The notes: generated by a model from the letters alone, not told the origin. Positions 25,337 to 59,431 are shown, counted from the stretch's first letter. The stretch: DNA of 64,000 nt from Alphaproteobacteria bacterium (GCA_014190355.1 BJGH01000001.1:177272-241271); one strand, 5' to 3'. Program-made: numbers and translations.

Positions 25337-25370
25337 AACCCTTACGTTAAATTTAGCGTAGGGGTTTTTT
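25337..25370 (+). terminator. Rho-independent terminator of hup
   Basis: AACCCTTACG / CGTAGGGGTT forms a ~10-bp stem with one G-U pair and a 10-nt loop. It is followed by T6 and starts 14 nt after the hup stop. Confidence 0.75.
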
Positions 25371-25383
25371 ATTGCCTAAAGAT

Positions 25384-25576
25384 ATTATAAATTTTTTTAG
25401 GTCGTGCTTTCGGGCAAGTTAAAAACTTGCCCTTACGCAACGACGGGAGTATAGAATAGATTTTGGAGATTGGGGTGAGATTATAAATTTTTTTTGGTCG
25501 TGCTTTCGGGCAAGTTAAAAACTTGCCCTTACGCAACGACTGTTGGCTAGAATGAGGTTTGGAGATTGGGGTGAGA
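25384..25576. repeat. Tandem duplication (2 x 96 bp) of a hairpin-containing element
   Basis: Copy 1 is 25384-25479 and copy 2 is 25480-25575. The first 61 nt differ at one position and the last 18 nt (TTTGGAGATTGGGGTGAG) are identical. A 17-nt patch between them shares only 8 identities. Each copy holds a GC-rich hairpin: GTCGTGC-TTTC-GGGCAAGTT-AAA-AACTTGCCC-TTAC-GCAACGAC. Confidence 0.8.
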
Positions 25577-25663
25577 AAATATTTTTTTTAAATTTAAGCT
25601 TTGCAAAATTAACTATTGAAATTCAAAAACAATTCAATCATAATTATTCTAATTTTAGAAATT

Positions 25664-25739
25664 GGGTGATTAGCTCAGTTGGTAGAGCATCTCCCTTACA
25701 AGGAGAGGGTCGGCAGTTCGAGCCTGTCATCACCCACCA
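25664..25739 (+). tRNA. tRNA-Val (anticodon UAC), CCA encoded
   Basis: GGGTGATTAGCTCAGTTGGTAGAGCATCTCCCTTACAAGGAGAGGGTCGGCAGTTCGAGCCTGTCATCACCCACCA folds as a cloverleaf. The acceptor stem is GGGTGAT/ATCACCC and the anticodon loop is CTTACAA. Confidence 0.9.
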
Positions 25740-25890: not shown

Positions 25891-25967
25891 GGGGGTGTAG
25901 CTCAGTTGGTTAGAGCGCTTGCCTGTCACGCAAGAGGCCGCGGGTTCAAGTCCCGTCACTCCCGCCA
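25891..25967 (+). tRNA. tRNA-Asp (anticodon GUC), CCA encoded
   Basis: GGGGGTGTAGCTCAGTTGGTTAGAGCGCTTGCCTGTCACGCAAGAGGCCGCGGGTTCAAGTCCCGTCACTCCCGCCA folds as a cloverleaf with anticodon loop CTGTCAC. Confidence 0.9.
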
Positions 25968-25973
25968 CTTACT
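25953..25973 (+). repeat. Direct repeat copy 1 (last 15 nt of tRNA-Asp plus 6 nt of downstream flank)
   Basis: CCGTCACTCCCGCCACTTACT is identical to 27621-27641. Weaker similarity continues into the A-rich flank. Confidence 0.85.
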
Positions 25974-26214
25974 AAAAAAAACTACTACAGGATCACTTCT
26001 GATCGCAATAGCTTTTGGAAAATATAAAGAAGATGGCGCGCCTTATACTGGCACAAAAGACGGAGGAAGAGTTTATATAGCCTACTTAAACCATCCGCTA
26101 CTATTCAGAGTAGGATTAGCTTTATTAGTTTTTGGATTTGGTTTTCAATTATTGGAAAAGTTAGAAATATTAAAACTAATAAATTCCTTAGCATACTAAC
26201 ATTAAGATTAGAAT

Positions 26215-27483
26215 ATGGACTTCAAATTTTTATCAAAATTACTCCAAAACTATTTGGTAAGATTGGGTAACACATCCAAAGAAAATAAACTTGCGTATCT
26301 ATTATTAATAATAGTTTTTTTTGTATGCTATAACACAGGATTGGTAGCGCTTTTTAGTGCCTTAATTGCAATTTATGCAATATTTTTTAATACCATGAGC
26401 AATGAATACAACGCTAGAAGTGCACTTATTAGCGATTTAACCAATAAAGCAACTGACCATTTAAAAGCATTTAAGGATGGTACTTTGGCATTGGAAGCAA
26501 TGCAAATGCAACTTTTACCTAAACCTCATTACTTTCAAATTTATGATGTTTTAACCTATAAACCTAAAAAAACTGAATATCGAGAAAAAGAACTAATAAT
26601 TAAGATTGATAACAGAACTGGTATAGTCTCAAAATTTAAAATTTTCATAGCCAATAAAGGTAAATGCATAGAAAATTACACAGAAATAGATGAAAAAGAA
26701 TATTTAGGAAAAGGTCAATTTGGAGAACCAGTAATACAATGGATCAAAATTTATGAAATGCTTGATATCCGAGCATACTCAGCAGAATTTATTAAAAAAT
26801 ACATTGTAGGAATGAAAAAATCAGGACTAAAAAAAGACGAAGTAGGAGTCAAAGCAAATCTACAAGGTATATGGCTTCATGGCGCAAAATTAGAAGAAGC
26901 AAACTTGGAGGAGGCAAACTTACAGGGAGTTAGTTTGCAAGGAGCGGATCTATCAGGAGCAAATTTATATAAAGCCAATTTGCAAGAATCATATTTACAG
27001 GGAGCAATTCTACAAGAGGCTAATTTACAAAAAACAAACTTAGAGAGAGCTAATTTACAAGAAGCTAATTTAATAGTAATGCAATTACAGGAAGCGGATT
27101 TATCAATGGCAAATTTAAGAAAAACAAATTTAATATTTTCTAATTTACAAGGAGCGGATTTAAATAAAACGGATTTCAGAGAAGCGAAATTTCGACAAAC
27201 AAATTTTAAAAAAGCTATAATTGGCCTTATTAATGAAAAAATAACACTTGAAGAAGTTTTATTAAATCCTGATTTGTTTGAAAAACACAAAAAAGACTTA
27301 CCTAGATTTTCTAGTCTTGTTCAATTAGAGGGAGCAATATTTCATGAAGATTGCGGCATAATTGATGGAAAAATAAAAAATGCATTAATTGAAGCAGAAA
27401 AATGGAAGCTGGAGCATGAAAAGAAAAATGGATTGAGTCCTGATTTTTGTGATTATCGCCTAACTTATCTCGACACAAAATAA
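26215..27483 (+). CDS. Membrane-anchored pentapeptide-repeat protein
   Basis: 422 aa with two N-terminal TM helices. From about aa 215 to 335 it has ~24 consecutive A(N/D)LxG/E-type pentapeptide units (ANLQGIWLHGAKLEEANLEEANLQGVSLQGADLSGANLYKANLQ...). Confidence 0.85.
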   Translation: MDFKFLSKLLQNYLVRLGNTSKENKLAYLLLIIVFFVCYNTGLVALFSALIAIYAIFFNTMSNEYNARSALISDLTNKATDHLKAFKDGTLALEAMQMQLLPKPHYFQIYDVLTYKPKKTEYREKELIIKIDNRTGIVSKFKIFIANKGKCIENYTEIDEKEYLGKGQFGEPVIQWIKIYEMLDIRAYSAEFIKKYIVGMKKSGLKKDEVGVKANLQGIWLHGAKLEEANLEEANLQGVSLQGADLSGANLYKANLQESYLQGAILQEANLQKTNLERANLQEANLIVMQLQEADLSMANLRKTNLIFSNLQGADLNKTDFREAKFRQTNFKKAIIGLINEKITLEEVLLNPDLFEKHKKDLPRFSSLVQLEGAIFHEDCGIIDGKIKNALIEAEKWKLEHEKKNGLSPDFCDYRLTYLDTK

Positions 27484-27620
27484 CGCATCTAGTTCTCAGG
27501 AAAGTATAAATATAAATTTATAGTCATAAGCAATCTTGGGGGTAAAAATGGGGGTAAATAGGTTTTTTATAAAACCATAAATCCTTTATTTACAAATCTC
27601 CAAAGCCTACAATATGACTG

Positions 27621-27641
27621 CCGTCACTCCCGCCACTTACT
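27621..27641 (+). repeat. Direct repeat copy 2 (att-like duplicate of the tRNA-Asp 3' end)
   Basis: CCGTCACTCCCGCCACTTACT is a 21/21 match to 25953-25973. No tRNA body lies upstream of it. Confidence 0.85.
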
Positions 27642-28112
27642 TTAAAAAAACCACTATATTTTTTCTCGTTTTTATTGTTAATAAACTAAAAAAATTTCAA
27701 AAATCCTTTTGCAAATTTTCCTTCCCCATATTTATAATATTCATCAGCAAAAAATTACTTAATTATCCTTGGCAACCTTGTTCGAGCTCTTAAATAATAT
27801 TGGCAATCAAGCATAAATTTAAGACTTAGTAAAATCATGACCAAGCTTGATTTATATGATTAAGATAGATAATCATAAGCAATTTGTGTTGATTGAAAAT
27901 ATATCAAACTTAAATCAAAGCATTTTGTAATTAAGAAAAAATATAGCATTAATCACAAAATAAATTATAACAAAATATAAAGAAAAAAAATGCCACTTCC
28001 AATCAACCAAAATCAGCAACCATATTCCAATTACATGGAAAACTATATAAAAAAACTAAAATACACCAAATATTTAATATTAAAAACACGCAAAACACTA
28101 ACAAACTAAACT

Positions 28113-29120
28113 ATGTCAAATAACCAACAAAACCAACCCTCCCCGCAAATCCTACTTTATCAAAGCGAGGATGGCAAAATTAAACTTGATGTTGAATTAC
28201 AGCAAGAAACCGTCTGGCTTAATCAAGAACAAATGGCGGTTTTGTTTGGCAAGGCAAAATCTACCATCAACGAACATATTCAAAATATTTATACTGAAGG
28301 AGAGCTTTTAGAAAGCCAGTCCATGAAGAAATTCGGAAATTCCGAATTTCAACAAAAAGCCACAAATTATTACAACCTTGATGTCATAATTTCTGTTGGT
28401 TATCGGGTAAAATCAAAGCAAGGCACACAATTTCGCATTTGGGCGACTAATCGTTTAAAAGAATATATTGTTAAAGGTTTTGCACTAAATGATGATCGCT
28501 TTAAAGCTGGCAAGTCGATGAATTATTTTGATGAATTGCAAGAAAGAATTCGTGAAATTAGGCTTTCTGAACGCTTCTTCTATCAAAAAATTAAAGATAT
28601 TTACGCAACCAGCATTGATTATGACGCCAAAGATGAAAAGACAATTGAATTTTTTCAAATTGTCCAAAACAAGCTTTTATGGGCAATAAGCAAGCAAACT
28701 GCAGCAGAGTTGATTTACAAAAGGTCTGATGGCAATTTGCCTTTTATGGGCATGAAATCTTATGACAAAAAAACCGAAAAATCGATCACTAAAAAAGATT
28801 CTGAAATTGGCAAAAATTATTTAGATGAAAGCGAAATTAAATTGCTTGGGCTTTTGGTTGAGCAATATTTGGCATTTGCCGAAACGATGGCAAATCAAAG
28901 AATTGCAATGTATATGAAAGATTGGATTGCAAAACTTGATTCAATCTTGCAACTTAACGGCAGAGAGATTTTAAAACATGCAGGAACAATAACTCACAAA
29001 ATTGCAGTTGAAAAATCAGGAAACGAATATCAAAAATTTAAAGAAATTCAAAAAAAACTAGAAAAACAAGAAAGCTTGAAAGAGCTCGAAAATGATTTAA
29101 TGAAAATTAAAAACTTATGA
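28113..29120 (+). CDS. RhuM-family (virulence-protein RhuM-like) protein
   Basis: 335 aa. The N-terminal pattern ILLYQSEDGKIKLDVELQQETVWLNQEQMAVLFGKAKSTINEHIQNIYTEGEL...YNLDVIISVGYRVKSKQGTQFRIWATNRLKEYIVKGFALND matches the RhuM family as I recall it. Confidence 0.75.
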   Translation: MSNNQQNQPSPQILLYQSEDGKIKLDVELQQETVWLNQEQMAVLFGKAKSTINEHIQNIYTEGELLESQSMKKFGNSEFQQKATNYYNLDVIISVGYRVKSKQGTQFRIWATNRLKEYIVKGFALNDDRFKAGKSMNYFDELQERIREIRLSERFFYQKIKDIYATSIDYDAKDEKTIEFFQIVQNKLLWAISKQTAAELIYKRSDGNLPFMGMKSYDKKTEKSITKKDSEIGKNYLDESEIKLLGLLVEQYLAFAETMANQRIAMYMKDWIAKLDSILQLNGREILKHAGTITHKIAVEKSGNEYQKFKEIQKKLEKQESLKELENDLMKIKNL

Positions 29121-29800
29121 CTAACAAAGAAGATTTTTATGAAAAAAATAATTCATCAATATTCGACCCAAAAGGAACCAATTGGATTGATGATATTGAA
29201 ATTTTATTAAACGATAAGCATTTTGTTAAACATTATCAAGATAATTTTTTTTCTCTTTACGCATCAGGCTATAAAGATTCAGCAAATATACTTTGCGAAC
29301 ATATCATAGAAAAAAAACGAACTTTAAATCGATCCGGCATAGTTTATCCAATAATTTATCTTTACAGACATTATTTAGAACTTCAGTTAAAAAACTTAAT
29401 TTTATTAAGTAATAAAGCTATTCTTCTAATTAATAACAACTCCTTTGATGATAGCTATAAAAAAATAATACTTTCTCATAATCTTATAGATTTATACGAT
29501 TTATGTTTAAAAAATCTAAAAAACTTATCAGAAGAAATTGGGGAAGAAGAATCTTTAATTAACGAAAATGAGGATTTTTCAATGCTAAAAAATATTATTA
29601 AAGAATTTGATAAACATGACAAATTATCTGAAGCTTTTAGATATCCGGTGGATAAAAAAAATAATTTTAACTTACAAAAAATTAATAACATTAACATAAA
29701 AAAAATATACGATATGATTAATGAGGGCACTAAAATATTAGATGGAGCTGAAGGCTGGCTTGATCATCAAATTTCTGAAATTTCTAAGAATCATAGTTGA
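29117..29800 (+). CDS. Hypothetical protein translationally coupled to the RhuM-family gene
   Basis: 227 aa. Its ATG overlaps the RhuM-like stop (ATGA). It looks helical and has locally conserved-looking motifs YLYRHYLELQLKN, LSHNLIDLY and AFRYPVDK. No family recognised with confidence. Confidence 0.55.
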   Translation: MTNKEDFYEKNNSSIFDPKGTNWIDDIEILLNDKHFVKHYQDNFFSLYASGYKDSANILCEHIIEKKRTLNRSGIVYPIIYLYRHYLELQLKNLILLSNKAILLINNNSFDDSYKKIILSHNLIDLYDLCLKNLKNLSEEIGEEESLINENEDFSMLKNIIKEFDKHDKLSEAFRYPVDKKNNFNLQKINNINIKKIYDMINEGTKILDGAEGWLDHQISEISKNHS

Positions 29801-29834
29801 TTTTAAAAATAAAAAATTTTTTTAAGTTGATATT

Positions 29835-30146
29835 TTGGCAGCCAAAGGAGATTTAGGTTTTGAAAATCCTAAAATTTGTATTCAAGTAAAATCGGGCTCA
29901 GCGGTTGGAATTGATATTTTAGATCGCCTTTCAGGAACAATCAAAAAAGTTAAAGCTGATTTTGGTTTGCTGGTTTCTTGGGAAGGTTTCAAAGGAAGTA
30001 TTAAAGAAGAAAAGAAAAATGAATTTTTTGCAATCAGGCTTTGGGAGCAAAAAGAACTGGTTGAAGAATTTTTAAAACATTATCATAAACTAGATGAAGA
30101 GATAAAGTCAGAAATCCCTTTGAAGCAAATCTTGATTTATTTCTAA
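29835..30146 (+). pseudogene. 3' fragment of an Mrr-like restriction endonuclease (Mrr_cat family)
   Basis: Only 103 codons, opening with TTG. GDLGFENPKICIQVKSGSAVGIDILDRLSGTIKKVKADFGLLVSWEGFKGSIKEEKKNEFFAIRLWEQKELVEEF...EIPLKQIL corresponds to the C-terminal half of ~300-aa Mrr-type enzymes. The N-terminal wHTH and the upstream catalytic Asp region are missing. Confidence 0.6.
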
Positions 30147-30369
30147 TGATGAATAATTTTAACTAAAATAAATTATGGAGGTGTAATTGCGGTCAGTAGC
30201 TATAAAATTCGAATTATAGATTTTTTTTAATATTTTTTTATTGATAAAAACAATTCCAAAAAAGCTGGCAGGCTAGAAAAAATCTTTTGCAATACTAACA
30301 GATTTAGTAAAATCTATCTTATTTATTTTTAAATTAAAATTTATAAATTATCACAAAACCTCTGCAAAT

Positions 30370-31686
30370 TTATTGAATTTCACACCCTTTGCCTCTCCTT
30401 CTCAATAAACCAGTACAAGAATTTCTTCCTTTGGATGTTACAGGTAAACTAGAACCATCTACCTGGTCATTTGTATTATCGCTCAAACTAAAACCCCTTG
30501 CAATCTGCGATTGAGTAGTGTTATCACAATTTTCTAAAACAATCTGGCCATCTCTTAATAATGAAGAATTAACTTGATTTTCTTGAGGATTATGAGTGTT
30601 CTGAAGATTATGGTTTAAGGGATTTTGATGAGATTGGATAGACTCTAAAGCATTTTCTTCTAAATCACTTTTACCAGAACTTATAATAGCTAATTCACAG
30701 ATAATTTTAGGTTCTTTATCTTCAATTCCAGGTTTTTTAAGTCCCCGTTCAATTTGATGGGATTCAGATCTTGATTGATTAGCTATTTTACTTTCCGCTT
30801 TACTTGCCGCGACACTATTAAATGCCGATACTCTATCTCTTACACTTCCTAACTCTTTTTCATCTATACCCTGAAGAGCGCTACCATTTTGGTTTGTCGA
30901 AGGTTTGATTGATGATCGCATTGGAAGAGTCGGCATAATTCTTCTACCATATTGATTGACAGTTCGCTCATTTCTATTTAAATAGGTTTCGTGACAAGTT
31001 TTTATTTTTTTTAAAATTGTTTTTAAATCTTCTAAATTATCGATTTCAATTTTTTGGGGATTAGATCTATATTGAGCCGCTTCACAAAAGAAAATTCTTA
31101 ATTTATCATCTTCAGTATCGTAATTTACAAAAATTGAAGATCTGCTTGAATTTTCATTAAACTCCATTTCAACAATTTTTTCTTTAACTAAAAATGATAA
31201 ACTATTTTCAGTTCCAACAAAAATAAATTCTTTAAGAGTTTTAGAAGTTTTCTTTAGATTTTCAATCGCCAAATCTTTAAAATATTTTTGCAATTCTTTT
31301 AATTCAACATCACCATCATGATGTTTGGGCATGACTTCATCGTCAGCTAAACTATCAATTTTTATTTGTCTTTGATCAATAGCATCAATAAATAAAGCTG
31401 TTATTTGAGCAATTCTTTCCTTATCCGATATATGAGACTTAACTTTATCAACATCAAAACTAAATATTTCAAAATTGTTATCATCAGTAATTTCAATTTG
31501 ATATCTCTCGCCATTATCTATTAAAGCCATGGCTTTTCGCCCAAGTCTTTCAGTTATCCCGCATTCAATTTCACTTACAAAAGGATCTTTGAAAAAACCT
31601 TTTTCACTATTAGATTTAGTATTGTCTTCAATGAAATTATTGATTTGCTGATAATATGGATTGTTTGCAATATTTGAGCTTTTCAT
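30370..31686 (-). CDS. Hypothetical protein ending in a polybasic CaaX-like box
   Basis: 438-aa ORF with no recognisable domain. The C-terminus, read codon by codon from the minus strand, is ...CTGLLRRRGKGCEIQ-stop. Confidence 0.6.
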   Translation of the reverse strand: MKSSNIANNPYYQQINNFIEDNTKSNSEKGFFKDPFVSEIECGITERLGRKAMALIDNGERYQIEITDDNNFEIFSFDVDKVKSHISDKERIAQITALFIDAIDQRQIKIDSLADDEVMPKHHDGDVELKELQKYFKDLAIENLKKTSKTLKEFIFVGTENSLSFLVKEKIVEMEFNENSSRSSIFVNYDTEDDKLRIFFCEAAQYRSNPQKIEIDNLEDLKTILKKIKTCHETYLNRNERTVNQYGRRIMPTLPMRSSIKPSTNQNGSALQGIDEKELGSVRDRVSAFNSVAASKAESKIANQSRSESHQIERGLKKPGIEDKEPKIICELAIISSGKSDLEENALESIQSHQNPLNHNLQNTHNPQENQVNSSLLRDGQIVLENCDNTTQSQIARGFSLSDNTNDQVDGSSLPVTSKGRNSCTGLLRRRGKGCEIQ

Positions 31687-32167
31687 AAAAAATGAAATTA
31701 ATTAATTTTTGTCACATATAAAATAATCTTTAAAATAATTAAGATTTTTATATTAAAAAAACTAACCTAATTATGATTTATTTATTAAATAAATTTTTTC
31801 ATAAATAAATTATTTTTAATTAGAAGTCAACAATTTATTTTTTTCTTTTAGATTTTTATCTTTAGGTTAATTTTTAAATGCCAAATTTAATAAAAAATAC
31901 AATCATTTTTTTTAATATTTTAACCATCTGCATCATTGATAACATGATTAAAATACATCGTTTGACTATTATAAAATTACCATCTTAAATTAATTCATCA
32001 AAACTAATAAATTTTTTAAGAAATATTTGATAAATGCTCTAAAACCATGATTTTGTATGGTTAGCTTCGTAAATCATTTTTAGTTTTTAAATATTTTTTT
32101 AAAAAATGTTAATTTTAAATTTTAAAAAAATTGCAAAAAATAGCTTTAATTATTACAACATTAAATT

Positions 32168-58810: not shown

Positions 58811-59431
58811 ATGTCAAAAACTAATGAAACTAAAAGCATTAAAAGCTCTTTATTTAAAAGATTACCTCACCTTGCAGAATCAAGAACTCATGGTATTGCA
58901 AGACACCTGATAGAGAAAAAAAAATTAACTAGATTAGAAAAAACTACCAATCCAGCAATGACAAAAGTTGGATTTTCAAAAACTGATTCATCAAATATAA
59001 AACCAATGGATATTGAACCAAGCCAAGAAATTGATGAAGGTTCAGCTGGAATTTATCAAGAAATTGATGAAGGTTCAGCTGGAATTTATCAAGGAATTGA
59101 TGAAGGTTCAGCTGGAATTTATCAAGAAATTGATGAAGGTTCAGCTGGAATTTATCAAGGAATTGATGAAGGTTCAGCTGGAATTTATCAAGGAATTGAT
59201 GAAGGTTCAGCTGGAATTTATCAAGGAATTGATGAAGGTTCAGCTGGAATTTATCAAGGAATAAGTGACGATTTTGCAAAAATGAGTTTTCAAAAAGAAA
59301 CGCAATTTACTCAATCTCATTTAGCTCAATCTCATTTAGCTCAATCTCATATTGCACCACAAACTGCAACATCTTCATCTTTAGTCAATAAAGATAAAGT
59401 AAATAATCCTAAAAAAACCATCGGCAGTTAA
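58811..59431 (+). CDS. Hypothetical tandem-repeat protein
   Basis: I prefer the ATG at 58811 (MSKTNETK...). The protein has seven 11-aa units Q(E/G)IDEGSAGIY, then three SHLAQ-type units. No family recognised. Confidence 0.6.
   Translation: MSKTNETKSIKSSLFKRLPHLAESRTHGIARHLIEKKKLTRLEKTTNPAMTKVGFSKTDSSNIKPMDIEPSQEIDEGSAGIYQEIDEGSAGIYQGIDEGSAGIYQEIDEGSAGIYQGIDEGSAGIYQGIDEGSAGIYQGIDEGSAGIYQGISDDFAKMSFQKETQFTQSHLAQSHLAQSHIAPQTATSSSLVNKDKVNNPKKTIGS
59024..59254 (+). repeat. Seven head-to-tail 33-bp repeats inside the CDS
   Basis: The unit is CAAG[A/G]AATTGATGAAGGTTCAGCTGGAATTTAT. The only variable base is position 5, with pattern A,A,G,A,G,G,G. A partial eighth unit follows to about 59265. Confidence 0.95.
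59312..59356 (+). repeat. Three 15-bp tandem repeats inside the CDS
   Basis: CAATCTCATTTAGCT occurs twice, followed by the variant CAATCTCATATTGCA. Confidence 0.85.

What the first reader, a model, noticed from the sequence alone, without database searches (positions are those of the whole stretch)
25384..25576. Tandem 96-bp element with a strong GC-rich hairpin and a diverged 17-nt patch
Two head-to-tail copies lie between the hup terminator and tRNA-Val(UAC). The 5' 61 nt differ at one base and the 3' 18 nt are identical, but a 17-nt internal patch keeps only 8 identities. Each copy contains a ~16-bp interrupted hairpin (GTCGTGC...GGGCAAGTT AAA AACTTGCCC...GCAACGAC), which is conspicuous in this AT-rich genome. 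No T-run follows it on either strand, so it is not a simple terminator. It could be a palindromic repeat element comparable in size to Rickettsia palindromic elements. It could also be a duplicated small RNA with a variable region, or a recombination site linked to the neighbouring tRNA island.
Basis: seen in the sequence. Interest (0 to 1): 0.55.

Follow-up and report, generated by a model that had tools for sequence, protein, structure and literature searches.

The report
Strain-variable hairpin repeat array
The two 96-base copies are real and belong to a previously undescribed family of short hairpin-carrying DNA repeats that sit head-to-tail in non-coding gaps of an uncultured lake alphaproteobacterium and differ in number and stem sequence between near-identical strains; what they do, if anything, is not known.

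Summary
It is not a trivial local duplication.

The same element fills the hup-to-tRNA-Val spacer in more than ten independent metagenome assemblies of the same and a sister clade. Arrays there hold one to four or more units, with short (61 nt) and long (93-96 nt) forms. At least six inner-stem alleles keep pairing through compensatory changes, while 500 nt of flank is 98-100% identical. The two patch versions in the window are alleles also seen in other strains.

Other close lineages have an empty spacer. One GOS contig carries seven units in an unrelated, very AT-rich context, so the family occupies at least two sites. No further copy lies in the 64-kb window.

There is no Rfam match, no conserved reading frame, no adjacent transposase or integrase, and no canonical terminator. 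In the window the array lies between the hup terminator and the conserved tRNA promoter.

Best reading: a new lineage-specific modular hairpin repeat of the BOX/NIME/REP kind. It expands and contracts by recombination at T-rich junctions. A small-RNA or promoter-cassette role is not excluded.

The parts
25339..25370 (+). hup intrinsic terminator (CCCTTACG..CGTAGGGG followed by T6). It forms the left boundary of the gap that holds the array.
   Evidence: Read from the sequence. It is identical or nearly so in all related contigs.
25384..25479 (+). Repeat unit 1, long type, 96 nt: A/T-rich junction with T-run, hairpin module, patch allele A, G-rich tail.
25401..25444 (+). Hairpin module of unit 1. 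Outer stem 25401-25407 with 25437-25444, internal loops TTTC/TTAC, inner stem 25412-25420 with 25424-25432, loop AAA. Inner-stem allele H1.
   Evidence: Folding. Covariance model R1 scores 60.2 bits. Compensatory changes across alleles.
25445..25461 (+). 17-nt patch, allele A (GGGAGTATAGAATAGAT). The same allele occurs in L008 unit 1.
25462..25479 (+). Conserved tail TTTGGAGATTGGGGTGAG.
   Evidence: Two copies in the window. Also present in L007 and L008. L171 and L175 carry the variant TTTGGAGATTGTGATGAG.
25480..25575 (+). Repeat unit 2, long type, 96 nt. Its junction (ATTATAAATTTTTTTTG) copies the left flank of the array.
25497..25540 (+). Hairpin module of unit 2, identical to that of unit 1.
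25541..25557 (+). 17-nt patch, allele B (TGTTGGCTAGAATGAGG). The core GGCTAGAATGAGG is the allele found in every unit of L171 and L175.
25558..25575 (+). Conserved tail of unit 2.
25576..25590 (+). Right junction AAAATATTTTTTTTA. TRF counts it as the start of a third copy. In L171 and L175 this type of junction separates the units.
25616..25644 (+). Candidate promoter of the tRNA-Val/tRNA-Asp genes (TTGAAA-17-CATAAT). It lies downstream of the array and is context rather than part of the repeat.
   Evidence: Best promoter-like site in the region, 10 of 12 matches. The block AAATTAACTATTGAA.TTCAAAAA is kept in relatives with and without the array.
25664..25739 (+). tRNA-Val(UAC), context.

Best explanation
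The two copies are units of a lineage-specific, modular, non-coding hairpin repeat. It is a new family of the same general kind as the pneumococcal BOX, neisserial NIME and enterobacterial REP/BIME repeats.

A unit consists of an A/T-rich junction ending in a T-run, then a constant 'handle' (outer stem GTCGTGC/GCAACGAC plus internal loops), then a free-to-vary inner stem-loop. After that comes either a short tail (61-nt units) or a 17-nt patch plus a G-rich tail (93-96-nt units). Units lie head to tail in non-coding gaps. In the window that gap is the transcriptional dead zone between the hup terminator and the tRNA-Val promoter.

Shown: the anatomy, the hairpin, the spread across strains and two contexts, the copy-number and allele variation, and the absence from sister lineages.

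Inferred:
- Arrays grow, shrink and get shuffled by unequal recombination or slippage at the T-rich junctions and by gene conversion between units.
- The inner stem stays paired because palindromes are corrected by intrastrand template switching, and/or because a hairpin is needed.
- The element has no trans-acting product. It is tolerated or selfish DNA whose effects on neighbours, such as insulation or weak promoter activity, are secondary.
For: Real and non-random.

Same element, same orientation, same spacer in independent assemblies with different make-up:
- window: 2 long units, allele H1;
- L175: 2 units, H2;
- L171: 3 units, H2/H4/H2;
- L008: at least 2 units plus a second GC-rich module;
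- L007: at least 4 units, short and long, H3/H1;
- L182-L184: diverged units plus a third module.

Flanks are 98-100% identical while the inner stems differ at 6-8 of 21-23 positions. In the inner helix, 4 of 8 pairs show double changes, 94% of cells are paired, and 0 of 500 shuffles reach the observed score or percentage paired.

Unit junctions copy the left flank in the window and the right flank in L171 and L175. This is expected from unequal exchange at the flanking T-runs. Chimeric stems (L007 u1, L191 u1) show exchange between alleles.

Empty or differently filled spacer in close lineages: L180/L181, L179, and the P0009, P0003 and P0002 groups.

A second context holds seven units and no hup or tRNA. 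Six 50%-identity cluster representatives in the global protein library are translated arrays (L171's own ORF, the query, was not returned by either search).

Not coding: the frame is open in L171 but broken in the window and in the 61-nt units. No Rfam family matches. No terminator is called. The array lies upstream of the conserved tRNA promoter block. No transposase, integrase or reverse-transcriptase Pfam hit is on record for the genes called in window ~16.2-37.5 kb (about 9 kb upstream and 12 kb downstream of the array).

Template switching as a source of one-step compensatory change in hairpins: PMC8794818.
Against: - The genome-wide copy number is unknown. Only 64 kb of an estimated 1.7-Mb genome could be searched, so tens of arrays elsewhere cannot be excluded.
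- The element persists in clades whose flanks are only about 86% identical, which could mean selection.
- All units known are co-oriented with the downstream gene in both contexts.
- The 3' arm of the hairpin (TTGAGC or TTGCCC) sits 17-19 nt upstream of a -10-like hexamer in both unit types, and two GGA/GGAG motifs 19 nt apart are kept. These features would fit a promoter cassette or a small RNA.
- Nothing here measures transcription.
Confidence: 0.5

Rival explanations
1. Each unit is a small transcription unit or promoter cassette. The 3' arm of the hairpin serves as the -35, an A/T hexamer 17-19 nt downstream as the -10, and transcription runs rightwards through the next hairpin. The array then makes hairpin small RNAs, or acts as tandem promoters or leader structures for the downstream gene (tRNA-Val here). 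The G-rich tail (GGGAG ... GGAGA, 19 nt apart) could bind a protein or the ribosome.
For: In 61-nt units the arrangement is TTGAGC-17 nt-TG-n-TATAAA followed by a T-run and the next hairpin. In long units it is TTG(A/C)(G/C)C-19 nt-TAGAAT.

The TTG of the 3' arm is the best-kept part of the inner stem: T28 and G29 are invariant, and column 27 is T in 10 of 13 alleles.

All units are co-oriented with the downstream gene in both contexts. Compensatory stem changes are present. The element is kept in two clades with about 86% identical flanks.
Against: The -10-like hexamer in the DNA I could read lacks the T at position 6, or has a 19-nt spacer. The promoter scan calls nothing inside either array, and such hexamers are common in 30% GC DNA.

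No hairpin-plus-U-run terminator ends the window units. There is no Rfam family. Close lineages do without the element, so it is not needed for hup or tRNA expression. The hup terminator upstream is strong. No expression data exist.
Confidence: 0.22
2. It is a non-autonomous mobile element (MITE, REP or PATE-like) mobilised in trans by a transposase or recombinase encoded elsewhere. The arrays arise by repeated insertion into T-runs, and many more copies exist in the unsampled 96% of the genome.
For: Presence/absence polymorphism between close lineages. A second, unrelated context. Units are flanked by similar A/T-rich T-run sequences that could be target duplications. The element is GC-rich in an AT-rich genome. 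Other small GC-rich modules accumulate in the same spacer. Assemblies break inside the element.
Against: No other copy appears in 64 kb even with an unfiltered covariance-model search, nor in about 200 kb of relatives' DNA outside this spacer. There are no terminal inverted repeats. All units are in direct orientation. No transposase is recorded in window ~16.2-37.5 kb around the array. Contig breaks are explained by the tandem structure alone.
Confidence: 0.18
3. The units are scars of site-specific integration and excision at the 5' end of tRNA-Val. Each unit would end in a decayed copy of the tRNA 5' junction left by an integrative element.
For: In sister lineages the same spacer holds inserts that duplicate the first 10-15 nt of tRNA-Val plus upstream sequence, in 0, 1 or 2 copies. 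Podoviruses of SAR11 integrate at cores overlapping tRNA 5' ends (10.1101/410191). Integrases follow tRNA-Asp in relatives. The tail TTTGGAGATTGGGGTGA loosely resembles TTTTAGAAATTGGGTGA at 25650-25669.
Against: The resemblance does not beat shuffles: 36, 352 and 759 of 1000 shuffles score as well. No similarity to the sister-lineage insert was found (z no higher than 2). No phage or viral contig carries the unit. The L191 array has no tRNA nearby. There is no integrase in the window region.
Confidence: 0.06
4. It is a trivial, recent local duplication of a unique 96-bp stretch, or a short repetitive protein-coding gene.
For: Only two copies exist in the window. The period is a multiple of three: 96 nt here, 93 nt in L171. 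A gene caller placed a 101-aa ORF over the L171 array.
Against: The two patches are distinct alleles that recur in other strains. The element occurs in many assemblies and in another context. The L171 frame is closed by stops in the window, and the 61-nt units are out of frame.
Confidence: 0.02

Closest known systems
BOX elements of Streptococcus pneumoniae (boxA-boxB(n)-boxC)
   Same: Both are short, modular, non-coding intergenic repeats with strong secondary structure. Both contain an internal module present in a variable number of head-to-tail copies. Neither has a transposase of its own, and the effects of both on neighbouring genes are debated. (Comparison from general knowledge of the family.)
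   Different: There is no sequence relationship. BOX elements number over 100 dispersed copies per genome with fixed end modules. Here only two contexts are known, the units carry a hypervariable inner stem, and there are no fixed terminal modules.
Neisserial intergenic mosaic elements (NIME: repeat units flanked by dRS3) and Correia elements
   Same: Both are mosaics of different small repeat modules piled up in particular intergenic gaps. Both differ between strains, and some carry promoter or terminator activity. In this lineage the hup-tRNA spacer holds at least three unrelated hairpin modules in varying combinations.
   Different: No dRS3-like flanking inverted repeat is present, no link to a phage integrase was found, and there are no terminal inverted repeats as in Correia elements.
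REP / BIME (REPIN) sequences and their RAYT transposases
   Same: Both are 35-45-nt imperfect palindromes with a constant part and a variable stem. Both are GC-rich relative to their surroundings and extragenic, and both often lie after terminators.
   Different: REPs start with GT(A/G)G, occur in hundreds of copies, typically as inverted pairs, and co-occur with a RAYT gene. Here the head is GTCGTGC, all copies are direct, no other copy lies in 64 kb, and no transposase Pfam hit is recorded in window ~16.2-37.5 kb around the array.
Rickettsia palindromic elements (RPE)
   Same: Similar size (about 100 nt), a hairpin-forming repeat in an AT-rich alphaproteobacterium. The source MAG is placed by GTDB in o__Rickettsiales (inferred from MAG numbering).
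   Different: RPEs are dispersed single copies, many inserted in frame inside protein-coding genes, and the whole element folds end to end. Here the units are tandem, intergenic and out of frame, and only the central 44 nt fold.
Rho-independent terminators
   Same: Both have a GC-rich stem-loop in AT-rich DNA next to T-runs. Two short units in L007 have the T-run 2-4 nt after the stem.
   Different: In the window units the T-run precedes the hairpin, and the next T-run starts 43-44 nt after it. The terminator scan finds none.

Membership tests
Rickettsia palindromic elements (RPE) | Dispersed single copies, many inserted in frame within protein-coding genes | tested here: not met
   All 30-odd units seen are intergenic and head to tail. 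There is no copy elsewhere in the 64 kb. Units of 61 nt are not a multiple of three.
Rickettsia palindromic elements (RPE) | Sequence similarity to one of the RPE families | not testable with these tools
   No RPE consensus library is on hand, and Rfam holds none.
REP / BIME (REPIN-RAYT) | Conserved 5' GT(A/G)G head on a 20-40-nt imperfect palindrome | tested here: not met
   The head is GTCGTGC in every unit.
REP / BIME (REPIN-RAYT) | Many dispersed copies, commonly as inverted pairs | tested here: not met
   Only direct orientation is seen. No other copy lies in the window or in relatives' DNA outside the spacer. The rest of the genome was not searchable.
REP / BIME (REPIN-RAYT) | RAYT (Y1 transposase) gene in the genome | tested here: inconclusive
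   No transposase Pfam hit is recorded for genes in window ~16.2-37.5 kb (about 9 kb upstream and 12 kb downstream of the array). The remaining 96% of the genome was not seen.
MITE | Terminal inverted repeats and target-site duplication | tested here: not met
   The unit ends (ATTATAAA.. / ..GGGGTGAG) are not complementary. The flanking T-runs are similar but are low-complexity sequence.
Intrinsic terminator | Stem-loop followed within 0-2 nt by a U-run | tested here: not met
   No site is called in the array on either strand. The T-run lies upstream of the hairpin.
Any Rfam RNA family (riboswitch, sRNA, ribozyme) | Covariance-model match | tested here: not met
   No hit overlaps 25384-25600 at E up to 10. 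There is none at gathering score and none in eight related loci.
CRISPR array | Short repeats (23-47 nt) separated by unique spacers of similar size, with cas genes | tested here: not met
   79 of 96 nt are repeat. The 17-nt patch exists as a few recurring alleles, not as unique spacers. No cas Pfam hit is recorded nearby.
Type III toxin-antitoxin RNA repeats (ToxI-like) | Tandem 34-40-nt repeats followed by a terminator and the toxin gene | tested here: not met
   Units are 61-96 nt. The downstream genes are tRNAs or, in L191, an unrelated acidic ORF 380 nt away with no Pfam match.
BOX / NIME-type modular intergenic repeats (kind, not sequence family) | Non-coding, structured modules, variable number of tandem internal units, strain-to-strain mosaicism, more than one site | tested here: met
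   Multi-site status rests on one extra context (L191) and on five short array-only contigs, four of about 600 nt and one of 3,850 nt that I could not read.

The most novel reading that the evidence does not exclude
The array is a battery of self-contained promoter-hairpin cassettes that produce small hairpin RNAs. In these, a constant handle is recognised by a host or phage protein, and the fast-evolving inner stem is a specificity determinant under diversifying selection. It could act, for example, as a decoy or immunity RNA, or as a hairpin/cruciform ligand of the HU protein encoded next door. That would explain why divergence is focused on the inner stem while everything around it is nearly identical between strains.
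Probability: 0.08. Interest if true: 0.75.

Novelty: new member of a known kind. Interest (0 to 1): 0.4.

Why it matters
Small structured repeats are well charted in a few model pathogens and hardly at all in uncultured plankton bacteria. This family gives a compact natural example of three things.

First, it shows a non-coding locus that changes copy number and composition between strains whose flanks are 98-100% identical. Such a locus is useful as a strain marker, and it is also a cause of assembly breaks.

Second, it shows a hairpin whose stem turns over by compensated changes on a very short time scale. That makes it a test case for telling mutational palindrome correction from selection.

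Third, it shows a spacer next to tRNA genes that collects unrelated hairpin modules in different lineages.

If the promoter-cassette or small-RNA reading were right, it would be a new regulatory device. If not, it is ordinary selfish or neutral DNA.

Tried and rejected
1. The genome-contig scan with GTCGTGCTTTCN{12,30}ACGCAA was too loose. The single scan was wasted and says nothing about isolate genomes.

2. The metagenome-contig scan with a tighter pattern gave 10 chance hits only. It also missed the known JGI positives L171 and L172, so its negative result is weak.

3. Viral contig scans and a phage BLAST found nothing related.

4. A search with the translated minus-strand frame of the window array gave no hits. 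The same trick with the ORF called over L171 worked.

5. Three homologies I saw by eye did not beat shuffles and are dropped:
- unit tail versus the tRNA-Val 5' junction;
- window element versus the sister-lineage insert;
- patch plus tail versus the 37-nt GGGGTCAGACCCC module.

6. Other readings considered and rejected:
- Diversity-generating retroelement: the patch differences are not adenine-specific and there is no reverse transcriptase.
- Pseudo-tRNA: ARAGORN and the Rfam tRNA model find only the real tRNAs.
- Integron attC: no core sites and no integrase.
- Coding repeat: the frame is not conserved.

7. I first took the organism for freshwater SAR11 (LD12) because names in the HU cluster said Pelagibacterales. 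The MAG table points instead to o__Rickettsiales f__UBA1997, and coding density in the window is only about 85%.

Full report
**Observation**

The window holds two head-to-tail 96-nt units at 25384-25479 and 25480-25575, plus the first 15 nt of a third (TRF: period 96, 2.2 copies, score 321). The units differ at 10 positions: one in the first 61 nt, nine in positions 62-78, and none in the last 18.

The 45-nt hairpin module occurs twice in the window and never in shuffles. Each unit folds into the following:
- an outer stem GTCGTGC/GCAACGAC with one bulged A;
- a 4x4 internal loop (TTTC/TTAC);
- a 9-bp inner stem GGGCAAGTT/AACTTGCCC with loop AAA.

A census of perfect GC-containing hairpins shows these two are the only ones of that strength in 64 kb.

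The array sits between the hup terminator (25339-25370) and the best promoter-like site of the region, TTGAAA-17-CATAAT at 25616-25644. That site precedes tRNA-Val (25664-25739) and tRNA-Asp (25891-25967).

No Rfam family matches, even at E = 10. No terminator-like site is called in the array.

**Source organism**

Exact protein look-ups place the window on ENA scaffold MEHR18-4_SAMD00112394_METAG-scaffold_1 (367 kb). They also tie it to NCBI proteins GDX35657-63 with locus tags LBMAG18_*, named 'Alphaproteobacteria bacterium'.

In Table S3 of Okazaki et al. (10.1101/655167) the eighteenth MAG by accession order is LBMAG_Alphaproteobacteria_epi.bin2. It is 1.63 Mb in 24 contigs, 29.9% GC, and GTDB places it in o__Rickettsiales f__UBA1997 g__UBA2645. 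This assignment is inferred from the numbering, not verified.

The window is 29.8% GC and roughly 85% coding. It therefore covers about 4% of the genome.

**The same spacer in other assemblies**

Contigs encoding the identical HU protein mostly break inside the first unit. Those that run on, and contigs found through near-identical neighbours, show the same element in the same place and orientation, but never the same array:

| Locus | Array |
|---|---|
| L175 | two long units with inner stem GCTCAAGC/GCTTGAGC (H2) |
| L171 | three units, H2, H4 (GCTCAAGT/ACTTGAGC), H2; complete from hup to tRNA-Val |
| L008 | at least two H2 units, each followed by a second GC-rich module |
| L007 | at least four units: 61-nt short units with H3 (GATCAGGC/GCCTGATC), plus one long H1 unit |
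| L173 | one unit read before the contig ends: an H4-like stem (GCTCAAGT/ACTTGAGC, loop AAA) with the short-unit outer-stem end GCAAGCGAAG |
| L182-L184 (sister clade, flanks about 86-94% identical) | diverged units with an imperfect stem, mixed with tandem copies of a third module AAAAAGGGGTCAGACCCCTTTTT |

Flank identity to the window is 98.4% for L171, 99.3% for L008, and 100% for L001 and L005. The inner stems nevertheless differ at a third of their positions.

The two patch versions of the window are alleles. Version A (GTATAGAATAGAT) recurs in L008, and version B (GGCTAGAATGAGG) fills every unit of L171 and L175. The 'diverged patch' is therefore not local decay after a recent duplication.

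**Hairpin evolution**

Thirteen distinct modules align without trouble. In the inner helix, 4 of 8 pairs show changes on both sides and 94% of cells are paired. No shuffle out of 500 reaches the observed covariation or pairing, and slid registers collapse to 10-48% pairing (for the first ten).

The outer stem and internal loops are constant at the background level of divergence. A few units are chimeras of two alleles and carry a mismatch (L007 u1, L191 u1).

So the stem is either needed or is self-correcting. Template switching at palindromes gives one-step compensated changes (PMC8794818). For DNA palindromes, then, covariation alone does not prove an RNA function.

**Junctions**

In the window the junction between units (GAG|ATTATAAATTTTTTTTG) repeats the left flank of the array. 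In L171 and L175 it (GAG|AAAATAATTTTTTTAT) repeats the right flank. Both are what unequal exchange or slippage between the T-rich sequences on either side of a unit would leave. This step is inferred.

**Absence in relatives**

L180 and L181 encode the same HU protein as L182, and in them the terminator is followed within about 35 nt by the conserved promoter block, with no element. L179 has unrelated filler. Lineages with 92-93% identical HU lack the element too.

Some of those lineages, and a further one (L185-L187), instead carry a different 107-145-nt hairpin-rich insert inside the 5' end of tRNA-Val. It is flanked by a duplicated tRNA 5' fragment and is present in 0, 1 or 2 copies. The spacer is thus a hot spot for small structured inserts. 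The element under study is young or dispensable.

**Other sites**

A covariance model built from ten modules finds only the two known copies in the window with filters off. In about 200 kb of related loci it finds copies only in this spacer.

A gene caller had placed a 101-aa ORF over the L171 array. Searching with that translation found three more array-derived 'proteins'. An exhaustive search of 1.84 billion representatives then found six in all, on contigs of 552-3,850 nt.

The one contig I could fetch is L191, from a Global Ocean Sampling (GOS) metagenome held at JGI. It carries seven units at 184-660, mostly 61-nt short units (R1 scores 53-66 bits). There is no tRNA and no hup. The array has 183 nt of 15% GC DNA upstream and 360 nt of 12% GC DNA downstream, followed by an unknown acidic ORF. 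The flanks match nothing else I hold.

The family therefore occupies at least two contexts. How many per genome is unknown.

**What it is not**

- It is not coding. The frame open in L171 (period 93) is closed in the window, and the 61-nt units are out of frame.
- It is not a CRISPR array, a ToxI-type array, an attC site, a diversity-generating retroelement or a tRNA relic (see the membership table).
- It is not a canonical terminator.
- It has no link to phages or to integrases near the array.
- The idea that the tail is a decayed tRNA-Val 5' junction fails the shuffle control. So do two other similarities I saw by eye.

**What could still make it functional**

In short units the 3' arm of the hairpin (TTGAGC), 17 nt of constant sequence and TG-n-TATAAA form a sigma-70-like promoter aimed at the next hairpin. 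In long units a TAGAAT lies 19 nt after the same arm.

The TTG of that arm is the best-kept part of the inner stem. Two GGA/GGAG motifs 19 nt apart follow the hairpin in nearly all long units. All arrays point toward the downstream gene.

Against this, the -10-like hexamers are imperfect and the promoter scan calls none of them. Such hexamers are frequent in 30% GC DNA, and there are no expression data.

**Verdict**

The finding is real and more than a local duplication. It is a new, lineage-restricted family of modular hairpin repeats with fast array turnover and compensated stem change.

It works like the BOX, NIME and REP class of bacterial intergenic repeats, without belonging to any of those families, and it fails the defining features of RPEs.

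I put 0.5 on tolerated or selfish repeat DNA that evolves by recombination at its T-rich junctions. I put about 0.2 each on a promoter-cassette or small-RNA role and on a trans-mobilised element with many unseen copies. Very little remains for an att scar or a trivial duplication.

Interest is moderate. The kind is known. The hypervariable inner stem on a constant handle and the strain-level turnover are the unusual parts.

Noticed in passing
L147:3466-3785, L149:3466-3632, L152, L155, L185:2420-2592 (orthologous spacer in sister lineages): A different 107-145-nt hairpin-rich insert sits inside the 5' end of tRNA-Val. The first 10-15 nt of the tRNA plus 7-32 nt upstream are duplicated on both sides, and the insert is present in 0, 1 or 2 tandem copies among near-identical contigs. 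It has the same build as the window element: a constant outer stem (GTTTTTTTCG/CGAAAAAAAC), a variable inner hairpin, and GNRA-type loops that switch GAAA to GCAA or GTAA between lineages. There is no Rfam, phage or viral-contig match.
   Followed up: partly
L007:680-735, L008:512-565 and 660-705: A second GC-rich module, CCCCCTCTCCCCGCTTGCGGGGAGAGGGATGGGGTGAGGGG, follows some long units. It is bracketed by direct TGGGGTGAG repeats and is absent from the window. It is 82-86% similar over about 45 nt to an unannotated intergenic repeat found in 5,220 of 5,426 E. coli genomes, with a median of 7 places per genome. From memory this resembles the E. coli BoxC repeat; I did not verify that.
   Followed up: partly
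L184:443-642, L182:850-965, L183:1027-1067: A tandem 37-nt module, AAAAAGGGGTCAGACCCCTTTTTGTAAAAAATAGAATGG, that looks like a bidirectional terminator. L184 has at least five copies, interleaved with diverged units of the hairpin element.
   Followed up: no
window 25968-32167; L147, L151, L153, L185 downstream of tRNA-Asp: In relatives, tRNA-Asp is followed by tyrosine integrases and partial tRNA-Asp copies, a classical island insertion site. In the window the corresponding stretch encodes a pentapeptide-repeat protein, RhuM, an Mrr-type nuclease domain and unknown proteins. It has no integrase and no repeat of the tRNA-Asp 3' end.
   Followed up: partly
window 59024-59262: A 33-nt tandem repeat, 7.2 copies, 98% matches (score 457), the strongest tandem repeat in the window. 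The period is a multiple of three, so it probably encodes an 11-residue protein repeat.
   Followed up: no
window 25340-25346 and 25430-25437 / 25526-25533: The 5' arm of the hup terminator and the H1 unit share the octamer CCCTTACG. Other stem alleles share only TTACG, so this is probably chance.
   Followed up: no
L171:5101-5406; P0172-P0175, P0177, P0178: Gene callers annotate spurious ORFs of 57-122 aa across these arrays (peptide repeat ..MRFGDWGEKLIFLCRAFAQ..LTQRREAR..). Such 'proteins' are a handle for finding the repeat in protein databases, and they are false genes in MAG annotations.
   Followed up: yes
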